Positions 2,610-49,291 of a stretch of 64,000 bases of DNA are shown here, piece by piece. The DNA is from an uncultured Candidatus Saccharibacteria bacterium (lineage in GTDB: Bacteria; Patescibacteriota; Minisyncoccia; UBA6257; 1-14-0-10-44-23). The position numbers were made by a program, and so were the translations under genes. The notes under the pieces are model-generated. The model worked only from the letters and a program-made list of their open reading frames with translations. It did not search any database and was not told the DNA's origin. Within the stretch, counting starts at the first letter, position 1, and each line of letters opens with the position of its first letter. Where the stretch lies: contig CAYMXN010000002.1 in NCBI GenBank assembly GCA_964394435.1, forward strand, positions 14,196 through 78,195. The letters are read 5' to 3'.

Positions 2610-3191
2610 TTATAGTTTTTGCACTTGGAGACTGTCGAGTTCGAGTACGGTATCACGGCCGAAGATTGGAATAACCACTTTGATTACTGCACTCTTCTCG
2701 TCTACCTGACTGACTTTCGCCTCCTGGTCCTTAAATGGACCGTCGGTAATTTTTACCATGTCGCCTACAGCTAAGTCAACCGTAAAGCGCTTTTCGCCAC
2801 CACCCATCTTCGCCATCAAGCTATCAACTTCAGCCTGCGAGAGTGGGAGTGGAGTGGTCGTGTCAGAGCCGACAAATCCGGTAACGCGTGGCGTGTTTCG
2901 CACTACGTACCAGCTGTCATCGGTGAGAATCATATCAACGAGCACATAACCTGGAAACGTCTTTTCTTCGATCTCCTGGCGCTTGCCGTTTTTGATCTTA
3001 ATCTTCTTTTCCTTAGGAACGACAACACTGAAAATCTTATCGCCCATTTGGAGGCTGTCGACACGCTGGTTCAAATAGCGCGCAACTGCGTCTTCATATC
3101 CAGAGTACGTGTGTACCGCGTACCAGTGGCGGCCAGTGCTTCCCTGCTGCTTACCTCCGGTCGGAGCCTTTTTGTCCTTTTTTTCGTCCAT
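2610..3191 (-). CDS. nusG: transcription termination/antitermination factor NusG
   Basis: N-terminal WYAVHTYSGYE NGN motif and C-terminal KOW (GDMVKITDGPFKDQEAKV). Conserved secE-nusG-rplK order. Confidence 0.92.
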   Translation of the reverse strand: MDEKKDKKAPTGGKQQGSTGRHWYAVHTYSGYEDAVARYLNQRVDSLQMGDKIFSVVVPKEKKIKIKNGKRQEIEEKTFPGYVLVDMILTDDSWYVVRNTPRVTGFVGSDTTTPLPLSQAEVDSLMAKMGGGEKRFTVDLAVGDMVKITDGPFKDQEAKVSQVDEKSAVIKVVIPIFGRDTVLELDSLQVQKL

Positions 3192-12254: not shown

Positions 12255-12320
12255 TCTTGACTTTTTTCAAATAAATAGTAATACTATATTTTGTAGGCCA
12301 TTCAACCCTGGAGGCGTTTA

Positions 12321-12587
12321 ATGACTCGCGAAGAATTCCTTTCGCTCCTTTCGGAGCTGTACAAGAGCGGGAAGATCAAGGCGACCCTCGGACTCCGCAA
12401 GGGGTTCGATCGTGGGACGATTCTCCTGCGTAAGTCAGGCGACGAGGACTGCCACCTCTCTACCGGAACGGTGGTGGTGTTCATCGCCAAGTTCCTCAAC
12501 CCGGACAAGCCGAGCTGGCTCTGCATGGCCTACGTCAACGCGGGCAAGGACATCGACCTCTCCCCCGAGGACTCGACCGCGGCCTAG
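12321..12587 (+). CDS. hypothetical protein, GC-rich cassette A (88 aa)
   Basis: Promoter-like TTGACT-17-TAATAC at about 12266-12295 and GGAGG 6 nt before the ATG. The ORF is GC-rich (about 60 percent) and is followed by a hairpin terminator. Confidence 0.55.
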   Translation: MTREEFLSLLSELYKSGKIKATLGLRKGFDRGTILLRKSGDEDCHLSTGTVVVFIAKFLNPDKPSWLCMAYVNAGKDIDLSPEDSTAA

Positions 12588-21171: not shown

Positions 21172-21420
21172 ATGTGGCACGTCTATCTTCTAAAAAGCCA
21201 GAAACAAAAATGGTATTATGTCGGGAGTACAAACCGACTCGAAGAAAGACTTAGCGAGCATAATCAGGGTCGAGTGCGATCGACTAAGAGCTATCGTCCA
21301 CTAGATATTGCCTACGCTAAGGAGTTCGGAAGCGAGAAAGAAGCGAGAAGTTATGAGAGAATGATAAAAGACAGGCGCATACTAAAGGAAGCGATTGTAC
21401 GAGAAATTGAAGGAAGGTAA
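21172..21420 (+). CDS. GIY-YIG nuclease family protein (YhbQ/Slx1-like, 82 aa)
   Basis: WHVYLLKS...KWYYVGSTNRLEERLSEHNQG is the GIY-YIG signature. The gene fills the gap between the tRNA fragment and the intact tRNA exactly. Confidence 0.8.
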   Translation: MWHVYLLKSQKQKWYYVGSTNRLEERLSEHNQGRVRSTKSYRPLDIAYAKEFGSEKEARSYERMIKDRRILKEAIVREIEGR

Positions 21421-21424
21421 ATAT

Positions 21425-21495
21425 TGCCAGATCGTCTAATGGTAGGACAGCGGACTCTGAATCCGCGAATCTTGGTTCGATTCCAGGTCTGGCAG
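21425..21495 (+). tRNA. tRNA-Gln (anticodon CUG)
   Basis: Manual cloverleaf: acceptor TGCCAGA/TCTGGCA, D arm GTCT..GGAC, anticodon stem GCGGA/TCCGC with loop CTCTGAA, T arm CTTGG-TTCGATT-CCAGG. U1-A72 as in bacterial tRNA-Gln. Confidence 0.85.
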
Positions 21496-21551
21496 CAAAG
21501 TTAAAATAGGTTCGGAGTCCGAGGAGCTTAACAGATTTAAATAATTAAATT

Positions 21552-21953
21552 ATGAATAATTTTGAGCTGGAAGGATGGGACGAAATAAATCAAAACGGAG
21601 GTACTATTGGAACGGGTATAAATAAATCTATTCACAAGCTCACCGTTGCAATATTCAACTCTGGCTCAAAAACCTCTACTCATGTAGGTTATCTTAAGGA
21701 TAAGGTTGAACAGCTAAATAAGAATCTGGAAGAATCGAGTAAATCCTCCGATAGGAATTCCAGAGCGATGAAGTATTTAACCGGAGCTTTGGTTTTTCTG
21801 GGTATCGTGCAAGTTCTAGTAGCTTGGTTAAGCTATTCTGCCGATCGATCAATAATTGGAACTAAGAAAAATTGCTATAAAACTGCACTTCAAACTTCTG
21901 ATATAGAATTAAACTATAGAAGCTGCCTTCATAGCAATGGACTTTCAGAATAA
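21552..21953 (+). CDS. hypothetical single-TM protein in AT-rich island
   Basis: 133 aa with one predicted TM helix (YLTGALVFLGIVQVLVAWLSY). About 33 percent GC. Confidence 0.4.
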   Translation: MNNFELEGWDEINQNGGTIGTGINKSIHKLTVAIFNSGSKTSTHVGYLKDKVEQLNKNLEESSKSSDRNSRAMKYLTGALVFLGIVQVLVAWLSYSADRSIIGTKKNCYKTALQTSDIELNYRSCLHSNGLSE

Positions 21954-21977
21954 ATATGCTTCAAATAGTGTAATTCT

Positions 21978-23009
21978 ATGGAAGAAAGAACAAGTCCTAA
22001 GCAACTTAAGTCAGATACAAGACAGTGGAATTCTGGCAGGGTTCATTTTGCAGTCATTGGTTGGCCAGGAAAACCTGAGGATAATTATATTGTTTTTCAA
22101 AAAAATTTCTTTGGAAAAACGAAAAACCAAGACCAAAAATTCAATTTACGTTTTAGAGATTGGCAAAATCTCAAGAAGCTTATTGATGGCGAGTTGACCC
22201 CTATTACTGAGTGGGAAAAGACAATTTCTGTCGTTGACAAAGAAAGTCTCGAAAAACTCATAAATGATGATCCTGATATTTTTTCAAAAGTCCTAGCAAG
22301 TCCGAATATATTAAAGTTGAGCGATTCCAGCTTCGAATCTCTTGATCGAATTGCAGTAAAAATATACGAAGTTAAGGCAGAAAAAATTGATCTAATCTTA
22401 AAAAAGATAGCTGAGACGCCATCAGCAGATCTCGAAAAGTTTAGTACCCTATTGAATGATTTGAGACTAAACCAGATTTCAATGATGACCACTTTGGTTT
22501 ACCAGAAATTAAAAATAATTGATTTGCTTGAAAAAGTTATCATATCTCCTAGAAGTAAAGAAAAGGATGTACATCAGATTTTTGAAAAACACCCATGGCT
22601 TTTGGGGAGAGCTTTCGAAATCGTTTCAAGTGATAAGGCGCTTATAAATTATCTAGAAACAAATTTACAAGAAGACCCAGAAACCCGCGTAAGACCTGAT
22701 ATAATCGCCAGCACTATTCCTTACACAAATGATGTCGTAATTATTGAACTTAAAAAACCAGGGATTAAACTTAAGGCAAAACATATTGGACAAGTCCTGG
22801 AGTATAAGGCATTAGTACAAAGACATAAGCCAAATGTAAAGAATATAAATTGTTTTGTTTTTGGTTACGAGAAAGATACCACTTTTACTTTTTCAAAAGA
22901 TGCAACAATAAAGACTTTCTCAGAATTAGTATCAGAGCTTAGGCATGAATACAAAGAATATCAAAAAGTATTAGATGTAGGAAAAGATCTTGAAGTAGAA
23001 AATTTATGA
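21978..23009 (+). CDS. PD-(D/E)xK nuclease-domain protein, Shedu(DUF4263)/NERD-like candidate anti-phage defense protein
   Basis: C-terminal region KEKDVHQIFEKHPWLLG...RPDIIAS...NDVVIIELKKP...QVLEYK shows the D...E-x-K restriction-endonuclease-fold motif and the hPWLlG element I associate with DUF4263. The N-terminal 200 aa were not recognised. Confidence 0.55.
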   Translation: MEERTSPKQLKSDTRQWNSGRVHFAVIGWPGKPEDNYIVFQKNFFGKTKNQDQKFNLRFRDWQNLKKLIDGELTPITEWEKTISVVDKESLEKLINDDPDIFSKVLASPNILKLSDSSFESLDRIAVKIYEVKAEKIDLILKKIAETPSADLEKFSTLLNDLRLNQISMMTTLVYQKLKIIDLLEKVIISPRSKEKDVHQIFEKHPWLLGRAFEIVSSDKALINYLETNLQEDPETRVRPDIIASTIPYTNDVVIIELKKPGIKLKAKHIGQVLEYKALVQRHKPNVKNINCFVFGYEKDTTFTFSKDATIKTFSELVSELRHEYKEYQKVLDVGKDLEVENL

Positions 23010-24575: not shown

Positions 24576-24989
24576 ATGAGGTGTACTTTGAAGCGTTCCT
24601 TTCTGCTCGCACTCGCGCTGATCGTGATGGCACTCGGCTTCCTGAACTCCCCGCTGGTCGAGCCGGCCAACGCTGGCGGCTTCACCATGCTGCTGCCGAA
24701 CACCCCGGTGTTCTCGATTGGGGTCTGGAGTCTGGAGACCGACGACTTCAAGTCGGTGGTCGTCCCTGCGGACCGGGCCGCCGACCTCTGCGCGGCGCTG
24801 GGCATCTCCATAAGCCAGGGCACGTTTAGCACGGCGGCCCAGGTCGTCACACTCAACCCGAACGCCACGGCGATCGTGACGTGCGATTGTCAGCCCACCC
24901 AGGGCCTATCCACGTACTGGGGAGTCCAGAGTACGTGCTGGCAGGACCAGTACGCACAGTTCTCTTTCGAGCAGGTCAACACACGCTGA
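24576..24989 (+). CDS. secreted Cys-containing small protein, GC-rich cassette B
   Basis: Signal peptide (..LLALALIVMALGFLNSPLVEPANA), mature domain with CDC...C...C. GC is about 62 percent. Terminator follows. The start could instead be the TTG at 24588. Confidence 0.5.
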   Translation: MRCTLKRSFLLALALIVMALGFLNSPLVEPANAGGFTMLLPNTPVFSIGVWSLETDDFKSVVVPADRAADLCAALGISISQGTFSTAAQVVTLNPNATAIVTCDCQPTQGLSTYWGVQSTCWQDQYAQFSFEQVNTR

Positions 24990-35770: not shown

Positions 35771-35796
35771 GTCTGGCTTATAAGCCAGACTTTTTA
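35771..35796 (+). terminator. intrinsic terminator of the surface-protein gene
   Basis: GTCTGGCTTATAAGCCAGAC followed by TTTTTA. Confidence 0.6.
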
Positions 35797-35878
35797 TTAG
35801 GATATTTTCGAAAATAAAAACAGCCCAGTGACAGACGCTTGCGCGTATGCACCGGGCTGAACAGGGCCGAACTGCTGA

Positions 35879-36562
35879 CTACCCCTTGCCCCCTGGAGGA
35901 GGCGCGAAGGCGGCGATCGGAGTCCAGCCGAGCAACTTGTCACCTGGCTTGGACCCCTCCGGACCCTGGATCATCGGGAGCGGATCGGTCCGCTGCCCGA
36001 AGTTGAGCTCGAAGCCCGTCGCCAGACGCGAGATGAGCACGTACTCCTTCTCCTGCCCCACCGGAGCCGTGGGCAGGACCGTCGCCCCGTTGAGGACCCA
36101 GGCGCGGCGCTTGTCGCACGTGCCGACGTTGCCGCAGACCTTGACCCAGCCCGCCTCGCCGACCTGCAGCGTCGCCACCGTGAGGTGGTAGAACTGCGAG
36201 GGAACGACGGCCGGGACCGGCTTGGACGACTCGCTGGGCGACTTCATCGCCGGCACCGTCGGGCAGTCCATGTCCGACTGCGGGAGACCCGGTACGGTCG
36301 GAGCCATGAGCCACTCGTTGAAGCCCGAGGCCTCCTTGGAGTTCGGCGAGGACGTGAACGTCTTCACCGCCTGCTTCGTCTCCTTGTCGTCGCCGCTGTT
36401 CCAGCAGAGGCCGACGATGATGACGATGATCAGGACGATGATACCCCCGATCGCCACGAGGCGACCGCGGGTGATCCCCCCGGGCACCTCGTGCGGGACG
36501 GGGTCGCCGCCGGACGAAGCCGGGGCGTGGGGGTCGTGGGAATCGTGGGAATCGGCGGACAC
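35879..36562 (-). CDS. single-pass membrane protein, very GC-rich cassette E (about 66 percent GC)
   Basis: His/Asp-rich cytoplasmic N-terminus, TM helix LVAIGGIIVLIIVIIVGLCW, Pro/Cys-containing ectodomain. AGGAGG 5 nt before a GTG. Strong promoter immediately upstream. Confidence 0.55.
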   Translation of the reverse strand: MSADSHDSHDPHAPASSGGDPVPHEVPGGITRGRLVAIGGIIVLIIVIIVGLCWNSGDDKETKQAVKTFTSSPNSKEASGFNEWLMAPTVPGLPQSDMDCPTVPAMKSPSESSKPVPAVVPSQFYHLTVATLQVGEAGWVKVCGNVGTCDKRRAWVLNGATVLPTAPVGQEKEYVLISRLATGFELNFGQRTDPLPMIQGPEGSKPGDKLLGWTPIAAFAPPPGGKG

Positions 36563-36600
36563 AGACACCTCCTTATTGGACTAGAGACATAGCCGTTTTG

Positions 36601-36640
36601 GCTTTTACTATAATAGCATACTATTTATATAAAGTCAATA
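36601..36640 (-). promoter_or_regulatory. near-consensus sigma70 promoter (TTGACT-17-TATTAT) driving cassette E
   Basis: Minus strand reads TTGACTttatataaatagtatgcTATTATagt, about 35 nt before the RBS. Confidence 0.55.
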
Positions 36641-36744
36641 GTTCGGGCAAAGGCGGCAATTCGAACATACCCCCTTCGACTTCCTATCTCAGGCCATTCG
36701 GCTCTGAAAGCTTCAGGCTCGATGAGGTCATTTCCCTTTGGAAA

Positions 36745-36980
36745 ATGAAATAAAAAGCAGCGCCGAAGGAAGGTCCTTCTGCGCTGCGGAGAGAAAGCCG
36801 GGTGACTCTTTGGTTTGCTTTGGCCTGGGAAATGGGGATGTGGAGGTCGAGGTCCGCAGGGACGCCCGACGAAAGCCTTAGCTCACCGCTAAGCCACCCG
36901 GAAAAGCGGTATCGCCGAGGGTTTGGAGACTACCCTCTTTGATGTACTCAAAGAGTACCCTTCCTCCGAAGGCTCGTCAA
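36745..36980 (-). other. structured noncoding region downstream of ftsX (about 235 nt) ending in an intrinsic terminator
   Basis: Multiple nested inverted repeats (CCGGGTG...CACCCGG, GCTTAGC..GCTAAG, GTCCCTGCGGAC). Terminal hairpin CAGCGC-N17-GCGCTG plus CTTTTTATTT. Confidence 0.4.
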
Positions 36981-37889
36981 CTAGACTTTGAGGTAGCGCC
37001 TGATAGCGATCCAACTACTGATAATACCGAGACCACAGCCGGCTAAGATGAGATATCCAAACAATTGAAATAGATTTGAGTAGAAATACACTTCGATATT
37101 AACCTCGGGTATAACTGCAGCAAAATATGGCGAGGCGAAGTTGATTGCCGGAGCGGCGATAAGCATCGTAAAGACGGCTCCAAATACTCCGTACAAGATT
37201 CCGTTTACAATATATGGCCCTTTGATAAAGGTGTTAGACCCTCCGACTAAACGCATAATCGCGATCTCTTCTCGATTGCTGTAAATCGCCAGACGAATCG
37301 TGTTGAATGCGACAAGACAAGCGGCGATGGCGATAAATACAGCGAGAACAAATCCAACTTTATTGACCGTATCAATAATCTTGTTGAGGCGCTCGATCGC
37401 TTTTTGGTTTTGGGCGTAGGTAATTTTCTCGACAATTGATTTAAAGTTGTCGTTTTCTAAATATGAGGCGATGATTGGATAATCCTTTGTGTCGTTCGCT
37501 TTAATGTTTACCGAGGCACGCAACGGATTAGCACTTAACTCCTGAAGCGCCTGACTGATGGTCGGGTCTTCTTTGTGGTTCTCTTTAAAAATTTCAAGCG
37601 CTTTGTCGCGCGAGATATACTCGACGCTCTTTACCTCCGGGAGTTGCTCGAGTGCTTTTTCGATTTTCAAAATATCATCTTCTGGAGCGGCAACTTTGAA
37701 ATACACGGCGATGTCTATTTTGTCGCGTAATGAGTCGGTAGCGGTCTTAGTTAACACATCAAACATCGTAAGTCCGTTGAATAAGAGTAGCGCCAATACC
37801 ATAACCACGATGGTCGCGATTGAAAGTGAGCTGTTACGCCAAAAGCTCTGGAAGCCGTATTTAATCATTCGTAATAGTCCGGTAAGCAT
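36981..37889 (-). CDS. ftsX: cell division permease FtsX
   Basis: 4-TM FtsX topology with a large first periplasmic loop. Follows ftsE. Confidence 0.88.
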   Translation of the reverse strand: MLTGLLRMIKYGFQSFWRNSSLSIATIVVMVLALLLFNGLTMFDVLTKTATDSLRDKIDIAVYFKVAAPEDDILKIEKALEQLPEVKSVEYISRDKALEIFKENHKEDPTISQALQELSANPLRASVNIKANDTKDYPIIASYLENDNFKSIVEKITYAQNQKAIERLNKIIDTVNKVGFVLAVFIAIAACLVAFNTIRLAIYSNREEIAIMRLVGGSNTFIKGPYIVNGILYGVFGAVFTMLIAAPAINFASPYFAAVIPEVNIEVYFYSNLFQLFGYLILAGCGLGIISSWIAIRRYLKV

Positions 37890-48910: not shown

Positions 48911-49291
48911 ATGCGCAAGCACCAGGCTGGTTATACGGGAACTGAAGTAATCATCACTTTCGCCCTCATCGCCCTTTTAGCGTCGGCGGTGGCCGGGCTT
49001 CTAAGCGTGACTCGAAGATACAAAGAGCAGACTGAACGAACGACTGCTCTCGCAGGCTGGCTCACTGCCAACAACCCCGAGATGAACTTCTCGGCGAAGG
49101 TTGGTGATACGTGCGGATGCGATCACGGCAAGACCGTCCCCTATCAGCTCGAGCTGATGGACAAGGTCTCGGACAAGTTCGCTCCCGGACTCATCTTCGT
49201 CGTCGAGCAACCGAAAGAACGCCCACTCCAGAAGGGGCAGCTCGTCACGCTCCACCTAGTCGACGGCAAGATCGAAGTCGAAAGCCCTTGA
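48911..49291 (+). CDS. prepilin-like small protein, GC-rich cassette D
   Basis: N-terminus AGYTGTEVIITFALIALLASAVAGLL has Gly then Glu at +5 and a hydrophobic helix, a class III signal-like pattern. TTGACA-17-TAAAAAT promoter, GGAG RBS, about 58 percent GC. Terminator follows. Confidence 0.5.
   Translation: MRKHQAGYTGTEVIITFALIALLASAVAGLLSVTRRYKEQTERTTALAGWLTANNPEMNFSAKVGDTCGCDHGKTVPYQLELMDKVSDKFAPGLIFVVEQPKERPLQKGQLVTLHLVDGKIEVESP

What the first reader, a model, noticed from the sequence alone, without database searches (positions are those of the whole stretch)
35879..36640. Cassette E: membrane protein gene at about 66 percent GC with consensus promoter, embedded in a 48 percent GC genome
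This is the most extreme of six compositional outliers. The ORF is GC-rich from start to stop with GC3 near saturation. The flanking DNA is native, including a TTGACT-17-TATTAT promoter, AGGAGG and a terminator. The protein has a His/Asp-rich cytoplasmic tail, one TM helix and a Pro/Cys ectodomain. The composition would fit an origin in a high-GC organism, for example an actinobacterial host if this is an epibiont.
Basis: partly seen in the sequence, partly recalled or inferred. Interest (0 to 1): 0.75.

Follow-up and report, generated by a model that had tools for sequence, protein, structure and literature searches.

The report
GC-rich orphan surface-protein gene in Saccharibacteria
A small membrane-protein gene with 69% GC sits in a 48% GC Saccharibacteria genome; it was gained by one narrow clade, has no relative anywhere else, and has lost its GC-rich codons several times more slowly than its neighbours' substitution pattern predicts.

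Summary
A 227-aa ORF (35879..36562, minus strand) has GC 0.686 and GC3 0.913, in a window of GC 0.480 and median GC3 0.51. It has a near-consensus extended -10 promoter, an AGGAGG ribosome-binding site and an intrinsic terminator. It is not an assembly artefact, because independent assemblies reproduce both junctions.

The "transfer from an actinobacterial host" reading is only partly supported.
- For a gain: four more distant relatives have an empty ftsX|p498 site, and the codon usage is the high-GC type (A-ending codons 3 of 229).
- Against a named donor: profile searches of 1.84 billion representatives, plus phage, plasmid and viral collections, find the family only in a few Saccharibacteria contigs.
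All relatives keep GC3 0.88-0.92, although flanking genes differ at 35-52% of 4-fold sites.
- GC-to-AT synonymous turnover is about 3-5x slower than in the flanks, while G<->C changes are not reduced. A second cassette (24576..24989) behaves the same way.

The protein evolves fast (dN/dS 0.56-0.88). It has two deep allele classes that co-occur in one metagenome.

Best reading: a foreign-type, moron-like cassette encoding a variable surface protein, with retarded amelioration of unknown cause.

The parts
36610..36638 (-). Sigma-70-type promoter: -35 TTGACT, 17-nt spacer, extended -10 TGcTATTAT
   Evidence: 10/12 match, TG before the -10. Nearly invariant in L006 and L001, so it is better conserved than 4-fold sites of the flanking genes.
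36563..36609 (-). AT-rich 5'UTR (GC 0.43) with a small hairpin (AGCCAAAACGGCU, 36591-36603) and the Shine-Dalgarno AGGAGG at 36573..36568
   Evidence: The spacing to the second GTG is 5 nt, read directly from the sequence.
35879..36562 (-). CDS of 227 aa with a GTG start (ORF listing extends it to GTG 36568, giving 229 aa). GC 0.686, GC3 0.91. N-in single-pass membrane protein: cytoplasmic His/Asp tail, TM helix at residues 35-53, variable Pro/Ser linker, and a conserved C-terminal ectodomain of about 125 aa with invariant Cys (C102 and C151 in 229-aa numbering)
   Evidence: P0001 (100% identical, 227 aa) was called independently in two Logan assemblies.
35811..35859 (-). Intrinsic terminator of the cassette (stem CAGCCCGGUG...CACUGGGCUG, then UUUUUAUUUU)
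   Evidence: Sequence. It is the 3'-terminal hairpin in the MFE fold.
35787..36641 (-). The unit of homology shared with relatives (promoter to terminator). It is bounded on both sides by indel-rich, non-alignable spacers
   Evidence: blastn of the window against L006 and L003. Spacer comparison.
36745..36982 (-). Neighbouring lineage-specific structured RNA candidate between ftsX and the cassette. It is context only and not shown to be functionally linked

Best explanation
This is a self-contained expression cassette: a strong extended -10 promoter, a Shine-Dalgarno sequence, a GTG start and an intrinsic terminator.

It was inserted once, in the ancestor of a narrow Candidatus Saccharibacteria clade. 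The insertion site is the short spacer between ftsX and a convergent fn3-like surface-protein gene (p498).

It encodes an orphan 227-aa type II (N-in/C-out) single-pass membrane protein with a Cys-containing, beta-rich ectodomain.

All three codon positions are shifted to GC, and A-ending codons are almost absent. This is the signature of a gene that originated in a high-GC genome. A foreign origin is therefore the most likely source (inferred), but the donor is unidentified.

Since acquisition the gene has stayed in the Saccharibacteria. There it evolves very fast at the protein level. It exists as two deeply diverged allele classes that are shuffled between lineages. This is what is expected of an exposed surface protein under diversifying selection at the epibiont-host or epibiont-phage interface (inferred).

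Its GC-rich synonymous codons are decaying, but 3-5 times more slowly than the neighbours' substitution pattern predicts. Some force limited to the coding or transcribed region disfavours GC-to-AT changes. Purifying selection on synonymous sites, for example for mRNA structure or stability, is the leading candidate. That force is shown to exist; its nature is not shown.
For: Real gene:
- The promoter, SD and terminator are in the right orientation.
- The promoter is almost invariant in three lineages.
- The GC3>GC1>GC2 periodicity matches the sense frame.
- Conserved motifs and invariant Cys are present.

Gain:
- The site is empty in L010-L013, while the p498 orthologue is present there at 38-42% identity.

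Organism:
- L006 is an uncultured Candidatus Saccharibacteria MAG.

Foreign-type composition:
- GC3 is 0.913, and there are 3 A-ending codons in 229.

Fast evolution and allele classes:
- Amino-acid identity is 54-72%, against 97-99% for FtsE, FtsX and the DEAD-box helicase.
- dN/dS is 0.56-0.88, against 0.01-0.04.
- Type I and type II alleles both occur in metagenome 3300045394.
- The allele tree is (win,L006),L001. The flanks give (L006,L001),win.

Retarded amelioration:
- At 4-fold sites, S<->W differences are 0.12-0.17 against 0.28-0.40 in the flanks.
- S<->S differences per S-S site are 0.20-0.33 against 0.09-0.16.
- Fisher P = 8e-9.
- Tip-branch third-position changes are S>W 14, W>S 3, S>S 16.

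Same regime in a second cassette:
- At 24576..24989, S<->W is 7/65 against 19/57 in its flank. The relative's GC3 is 0.918.

Other:
- The CDS folds slightly better than synonymous-codon shuffles (z -1.5 and -2.1). A native control gives 0.07.
Against: - No donor homologue was found anywhere, so foreign origin rests on composition plus the empty site only.
- No mobile-element scars are present. The only cassette-flanking inverted repeat (I6) is not conserved in L006.
- The surface-protein and diversifying-selection role is inferred from topology and rates. There is no fold (AF2 pLDDT 40 and 47; Foldseek found nothing), no family hit and no expression data.
- dN/dS below 1 is also compatible with relaxed constraint.
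- The rate comparison rests on 75-101 four-fold sites per pair and on three to five sequences.
- The mRNA-structure signal is weak.
Confidence: 0.55

Rival explanations
1. Plain recent horizontal transfer from the actinobacterial host of the epibiont. The gene is GC-rich simply because it has not yet had time to ameliorate.
For: The composition and codon usage are typical of high-GC Actinomycetota (the comparison with actinobacterial usage is from general knowledge). The site is empty in outgroups. Saccharibacteria are epibionts of Actinobacteria (PMC11659515, PMC7427843). The window carries a type IV pilus cluster at 13.4-21 kb.
Against: The gene is present at the same site, with GC3 0.88-0.92, in lineages whose flanking genes differ at 35-52% of 4-fold sites. 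S<->W turnover is 2.7-5.5x slower than in the flanks (derived from the counts with a symmetric two-state model), while G<->C changes are at least as frequent. No actinobacterial homologue was found among about 15 billion proteins.
Confidence: 0.12
2. The alleles diverged inside a high-GC gene pool (host, host phage or plasmid) and were imported repeatedly. Each import replaced the resident allele by recombination within conserved parts of the gene. On this view the GC-conserving substitution pattern was made in the donor, not in the Saccharibacteria.
For: The substitution spectrum (S<->S at least equal to S<->W) looks like evolution in a high-GC genome. There are two allele classes, and their tree conflicts with the flanks. 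The flanks are a recombination mosaic: L006-L001 dS is 1.43 for p498 but 0.25 for the DEAD-box helicase.
Against: Every copy with visible context lies in Saccharibacteria-type flanks of 0.47-0.51 GC. No high-GC-context copy exists in Logan, JGI or NCBI data, although hosts should be abundant in the same samples.
Confidence: 0.1
3. The gene is native or arose de novo in the lineage. Its GC-rich codons were created and are held at equilibrium by selection, for example for a very stable, highly structured mRNA or a special translation regime. No transfer is involved.
For: The GC step coincides with the start codon; the 5'UTR has GC 0.43. S>W changes are depleted. Two cassettes share the pattern. 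The CDS folds better than synonymous shuffles. There are no homologues elsewhere.
Against: Tip branches show a net S>W excess of 14:3, so the composition is decaying and not at equilibrium. GC1 and GC2 are also shifted. Native ribosomal-protein, pilin and MreB genes have GC3 0.48-0.57, so there is no general preference for GC-ending codons. The empty site in outgroups fits insertion.
Confidence: 0.15
4. GC-biased gene conversion at a recombination hot spot raised and keeps the GC content.
For: There is evidence of allele exchange and mosaic flanks.
Against: The borders are sharp. The presumably neutral spacer 36641-36744 (GC 0.52), the 5'UTR (0.43) and the adjacent p498 3' end are not GC-enriched. 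The net direction on tip branches is S>W.
Confidence: 0.05
5. The feature is an artefact: a chimeric assembly or contaminant insertion, or the real feature is on the other strand.
For: Long antisense ORFs exist: 114, 120 and 135 aa in the window, and 250 aa in L006.
Against: Independent assemblies from at least 6 samples show the same junctions. The antisense frames are open only because A3 is almost absent (0-1 stops), and they translate to Arg-rich nonsense. The signals and the codon periodicity fit the minus strand.
Confidence: 0.02

Closest known systems
Horizontally acquired ORFan or genomic islet undergoing amelioration (Lawrence and Ochman model; recalled from general knowledge)
   Same: Atypical base composition at all codon positions, lineage-restricted presence with an empty site in relatives, and a net drift of third positions towards the host genome's composition.
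   Different: No donor or any outside homologue. It is GC-rich rather than the usual AT-rich foreign DNA. S<->W turnover is 3-5x slower than in the neighbours, so the composition has survived heavy (35-52%) 4-fold-site divergence in the flanks.
Phage 'morons' (Hendrix/Juhala: an extra gene with its own promoter and terminator, and a composition unlike its neighbours; from general knowledge)
   Same: A single gene bracketed by its own promoter and intrinsic terminator, inserted between two resident genes, with deviant composition. It often encodes a membrane or surface protein.
   Different: It is not in a prophage. The neighbours are prfB-ftsE-ftsX and cellular genes. There are no PHROG, phage or viral-contig matches.
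Polymorphic surface-protein loci under diversifying or frequency-dependent selection (a general class)
   Same: Single-pass membrane topology, dN/dS 0.56-0.88 against 0.01-0.04 for neighbours, two deep allele classes co-occurring in one community, and an allele tree incongruent with the flanks.
   Different: Function, exposure and ligand are all unknown. dN/dS is below 1, and no site-level test of positive selection is possible with 5 sequences.

Membership tests
Xenologue transferred from Actinomycetota (host-to-epibiont HGT) | Composition and codon usage deviate from the recipient and match the donor type | tested here: met
   GC3 is 0.913 against a median of 0.51. A-ending codons are 3 of 229. 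The match to actinobacterial usage is judged from general knowledge and was not computed against a reference genome.
Xenologue transferred from Actinomycetota (host-to-epibiont HGT) | Patchy distribution: absent from the orthologous site in related genomes | tested here: met
   The ftsX|p498 spacer is empty in L010-L013.
Xenologue transferred from Actinomycetota (host-to-epibiont HGT) | Homologues in the donor group, with the recipient's gene nested among them | tested here: not met
   Only 5 related proteins exist, all in Saccharibacteria context. tblastn against phages and plasmids and a viral-contig scan were negative. The JGI metagenome-contig scan was also negative but is uninformative, because it missed known family members.
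Xenologue transferred from Actinomycetota (host-to-epibiont HGT) | Neutral amelioration at the recipient's substitution pattern after transfer | tested here: not met
   S<->W differences at 4-fold sites are 0.12-0.17 against 0.28-0.40 in the flanks.
Phage moron | Own promoter and terminator, with composition unlike the neighbours | tested here: met
Phage moron | Located within a (pro)phage genome | tested here: not met
   The neighbours are prfB, ftsE, ftsX, an fn3-like surface protein, an AAA ATPase and a DEAD-box helicase. There are no phage matches.
Integron or other mobile gene cassette | Recombination site, terminal repeats or target-site duplication at the borders | tested here: not met
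   Only a 14-nt imperfect inverted repeat is found (I6). It is absent in L006 and L001. The cassette has its own promoter, unlike integron cassettes.
Pfam PF18895 T4SS_pilin / PF13572 DUF4134 | Score at or above the gathering threshold | tested here: not met
   The scores are 16.2 and 13.0 bits against cut-offs of 26.6 and 26.5, and the matches cover the TM helix only.

The most novel reading that the evidence does not exclude
This Saccharibacteria clade carries a class of small, strongly promoted orphan genes for secreted or membrane proteins. There are at least cassettes at 12321, 24576, 35879 and perhaps 48911. Their host-like, GC-rich synonymous codon usage is actively protected from the genome's own mutational drift. 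That would be gene-specific selection on synonymous composition, for example for mRNA stability or structure, or for some interaction with the high-GC host. It would be strong enough to hold GC3 near 0.9 in a 48% GC genome over dS>1.
Probability: 0.25. Interest if true: 0.75.

Novelty: new variant of a known kind. Interest (0 to 1): 0.55.

Why it matters
Compositional outliers are routinely read as recent transfers, and in epibionts they are used to guess the host. Here the outlier is old relative to the heavy synonymous divergence of its neighbours. It has no detectable donor, and it resists amelioration. A second cassette in the same window does the same.

If the cause is selection on synonymous sites, this would be an unusually strong, gene-specific case in a reduced-genome bacterium. 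It would also mark a set of fast-evolving surface or secreted proteins that are good candidates for host-interaction factors in Saccharibacteria.

If a donor is eventually found, the locus would be direct evidence for host-to-epibiont gene flow. Either way, GC content alone should not be used to date or source such genes.

Tried and rejected
- Family and fold assignment: Pfam, NCBIfam, PHROGs, PADLOC and PDB sequence searches gave only sub-threshold hits to the TM helix.
- Structure prediction: AlphaFold2 on the full protein and on the ectodomain gave pLDDT 39.9 and 47.4, with only 4 sequences in the alignment. Foldseek against PDB gave nothing with E<1. The afdb50 library was unavailable.
- Donor search: the 5.8-billion-cluster word search, an HMMER profile against 1.84 billion representatives, tblastn against phages and plasmids, and scans of IMG/VR and genome contigs found nothing outside the clade. 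A scan of JGI metagenome contigs also returned nothing, but it missed known family members, so it is uninformative.
- Promoter as a shared module: an exact-pattern scan of metagenome contigs found no other copy.
- Mobile-element scars: none are conserved.
- Antisense or dual coding: rejected. The open antisense frames are a by-product of A3 avoidance.
- gBGC: judged unlikely because of the sharp borders.
- mRNA structure: the dinucleotide-shuffle z of -3.55 shrinks to -1.5 and -2.1 against synonymous-codon shuffles. This is suggestive only. The first attempt timed out.
- Rfam: no family in or beside the cassette.
- Literature: no description of such GC-rich cassettes in Saccharibacteria was found. 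Sample accessions were not found in any paper.

Full report
**1. The observation**

The window has GC 0.480. The largest ORF in the flagged interval lies on the minus strand at 35879..36568 (229 aa from the first GTG).

The Shine-Dalgarno AGGAGG occupies 36573..36568 and overlaps that first GTG. The second GTG at 36562 lies 5 nt downstream of it (sequence). Two independent Logan assemblies call the 227-aa form (P0001). I therefore take 35879..36562 as the CDS.

- The CDS has GC 0.686.
- Codon-position GC is 0.63/0.51/0.91.
- Among 74 non-overlapping ORFs of the window, the median GC3 is 0.51 with a robust SD of 0.044. This gene therefore lies 9 robust SD out.
- The most GC-rich 690-bp stretch of the whole window starts at 35851.
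- The promoter TTGACT-17-TATTAT, with TG upstream of the -10, is confirmed at 36638..36610.
- The terminator hairpin (35821-35859) plus T-run (35811-35820) is visible in the sequence and in the fold.
- The GC step is sharp. The 5'UTR has GC 0.43, the upstream spacer 0.52, and the DNA beyond the terminator 0.36.
- The protein has a His/Asp-rich tail and one strong TM helix (residues 35-53). Arg residues precede the helix, which suggests an N-in topology. It has 10.9% Pro and four Cys.

**2. Not an artefact, and which organism**

- L004 and L005, from two different runs, are 100% identical to the window across both junctions.
- L001, L002, L003, L006, L014 and L015, from other samples, carry diverged copies with the same step: gene GC 0.66-0.69 in flanks of 0.47-0.51.
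- L006 is titled as an uncultured Candidatus Saccharibacteria MAG.
- The neighbours are prfB-ftsE-ftsX upstream and a convergent 498-aa Ser/Thr/Asn-rich protein (p498) downstream. The outgroup orthologues of p498 carry a faint fn3 hit.

**3. Phyletic distribution**

The family is tiny.

- Four proteins turn up in 5.8 billion clusters.
- An HMMER profile against 1.84 billion representatives returns two cluster representatives, both from this family.
- tblastn against phages and plasmids, and the IMG/VR scan, gave nothing. The JGI contig scan also returned nothing, but it missed known family members, so it adds little.
- Every copy with visible context is in the same position, in Saccharibacteria-type DNA.

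I used FtsX as an anchor. Four more distant genomes were examined (FtsX 66-73% identical, p498 orthologue 38-42% identical). In each, ftsX is followed directly by the convergent p498 orthologue, with spacers of 7, 104, 120 and 307 bp. There is no similarity to the cassette in any of them.

The cassette is therefore a gain in the ancestor of a narrow clade.

**4.

That is what is found.

- GC3 is 0.913 (window), 0.885 (L006), 0.883 (L001) and 0.876 (L014 and L015).
- These lineages are not close. FtsE, FtsX and the DEAD-box helicase are 97-100% identical in protein. They nevertheless differ at 38-55% of 4-fold sites between the window and L006 or L001, and at 17-41% between L006 and L001. Their dS is 0.25-1.8.

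At 4-fold sites of the GC-rich gene:

| Measure | GC-rich gene | Pooled flanks |
|---|---|---|
| S<->W differences per site | 0.12-0.17 | 0.28-0.40 |
| G<->C differences per S-S site | 0.20-0.33 | 0.09-0.16 |

Under a symmetric two-state model, the expected S<->W difference does not depend on the starting composition. The deficit is therefore a real rate difference. The binomial P values are 2e-9, 2e-5 and 1.5e-3 for the three pairs, and the Fisher P is 8e-9. Converting the differences to relaxation rates gives a turnover 2.7-5.5x slower than in the flanks. This conversion is my own arithmetic on the counts.

The G<->C "clock" shows that the alleles are at least as old as the flanks. Recent spread therefore cannot explain the deficit.

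On tip branches polarised by an outgroup, third-position changes are S>W 14, W>S 3 and S>S 16. Composition is therefore decaying, not at equilibrium, but slowly.

A second cassette (24576..24989) encodes a secreted 137-aa protein with GC3 0.84. It has only two homologues. Its relative has GC3 0.918 in a 0.50-GC flank. It shows the same spectrum: S<->W 7/65 against 19/57 in its flank, and S<->S 12/55 against 3/23.

**5. What maintains the composition**

- gBGC is unlikely. The presumably neutral spacer 80 bp upstream and the 5'UTR are not GC-enriched, and the net direction is S>W.
- General translational selection is unlikely. Ribosomal-protein, pilin and MreB genes have GC3 0.48-0.57.
- Selection on mRNA structure has weak support. 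The CDS folds better than synonymous-codon shuffles (z -1.5 and -2.1; cassette C -1.3). A native control gives 0.07.
- Repeated import from a high-GC pool would produce exactly this spectrum, but no high-GC copy exists in any database searched.
- A context effect on cytosine deamination in very GC-rich DNA is conceivable (general knowledge) and could not be tested here.

I conclude that a force exists and is confined to the CDS or transcript. Its nature is open.

**6. The protein and its evolution**

- Amino-acid identity among clade members is 54-72%.
- dN is 0.18-0.39 and dN/dS is 0.56-0.88, against 0.01-0.04 for most neighbours.
- There are two allele classes: type I (window, L006, L015) and type II (L001, L014). 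They are about 70% identical in DNA and 47-56% in protein.
- Both classes occur in one metagenome. The two contigs share their first 55 nt, within the stretch encoding the TM helix, and then diverge.
- The allele tree is (win,L006),L001, while the flanks give (L006,L001),win.
- Between L006 and L001, p498 next door is far more diverged (dS 1.43) than the DEAD-box helicase gene (dS 0.25). This indicates a recombination mosaic.
- The conserved parts are the juxtamembrane PVPxxVPGGITRGRL motif, DCPxVP, two invariant Cys, and the C-terminal FGQRxxPLPMIxGPxGxKPGDK motif.
- No family or fold could be assigned.

The most economical functional reading is an exposed, strongly expressed, variable surface protein at the epibiont-host or epibiont-phage interface. 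This is an inference.

**7. Comparison with known kinds**

- The anatomy is that of a phage "moron": its own promoter and terminator, deviant composition, inserted between resident genes. There is no phage context, however.
- It meets two criteria for HGT: atypical composition and an empty site in relatives.
- It fails two others: a donor homologue and neutral amelioration.
- No paper in the held library describes GC-rich cassettes in Saccharibacteria.

**8. Verdict**

The feature is real and the gene is real. "Foreign origin" is plausible but unproven. "Actinobacterial host" is unsupported by homology.

The interesting result is the persistence of GC-rich codons in two independent orphan cassettes, together with fast, allelic protein evolution.

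- Interest: 0.55.
- Novelty: a new variant of a known kind, namely an acquired orphan cassette with retarded amelioration.

Noticed in passing
window 36745..36982 (-): A conserved RNA candidate of about 235 nt lies directly downstream of the ftsX stop and ends in an intrinsic terminator. Its MFE is -99 kcal/mol, with z = -5.0 against 200 shuffles. RNAalifold finds 63 pairs, 6 of them with compensatory changes among only three sequences. There is no Rfam match even at E<=1. It is absent from the four outgroup loci, so like the cassette it is specific to this clade.
   Followed up: partly
window 24576..24989 (+): A second GC-rich cassette (GC 0.63, GC3 0.84) encodes a 137-aa signal-peptide, Cys-containing orphan protein with its own terminator. 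Only two homologues exist. The relative L009 has GC3 0.918 in a 0.50-GC flank and shows the same S>W deficit.
   Followed up: yes
window 12321..12587 (+) and 48911..49291 (+): There are two more small GC-enriched ORFs, each with its own promoter and terminator. One is an 88-aa soluble orphan (GC3 0.85). The other is a 126-aa protein with a prepilin-like N-terminus, QAGYTGTEVIITFALIALL (GC3 0.69; weak XpsI and LPXTG-region hits on the TM segment only). Both are singleton clusters at 90% identity.
   Followed up: partly
window 12271..12280 (+) and 36619..36628 (-): The 10-mer ATAAATAGTA occurs only twice in 64 kb, where 0.07 occurrences are expected. Both copies lie in the spacer of TTGACTTT-type promoters of GC-rich cassettes. 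This may be a shared regulatory element, or simply a strong-promoter signature.
   Followed up: partly
window 21172..23009 (+): A low-GC island (GC 0.33-0.37, GC3 0.27-0.31) follows tRNA-Gln (21425-21496) and a GIY-YIG-like small ORF. Its 343-aa protein has weak, sub-threshold hits to Shedu SduA_C (E = 6e-5, 23.6 bits against a cut-off of 27) and to SIR2 in PADLOC (E = 0.015). It may be an acquired defence islet of opposite compositional sign.
   Followed up: partly
L006 2343..3095 (-); window 35847..36592 (+): Long antisense ORFs overlap the GC-rich gene: 250 aa with an ATG start in L006, and 114, 120 and 135 aa in the window. They are open because A-ending sense codons are nearly absent, and they are a trap for gene callers. 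P0001 and the 88-aa cassette protein are on record only from Logan assemblies. The NCBI record that carries the neighbouring P0006 and P0129 does not hold them, which suggests the deposited annotation does not call them in this form.
   Followed up: partly
L013 2768..3850 (-): In one outgroup genome (a 634-kb contig), a reverse-transcriptase gene (RVT_1, 360 aa) sits just upstream of prfB-ftsE-ftsX. It was not examined for DGR or group II intron features.
   Followed up: no
window 36641..36744; L001 about 2650..2820: The spacer between the RNA candidate's terminator and the cassette promoter is hypervariable in length: about 105 nt in the window, about 40 nt in L006, and about 170 nt in L001. 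It contains short degenerate '..GTCGAAGG..' repeats in L001 and in the window. This is unexplained.
   Followed up: no
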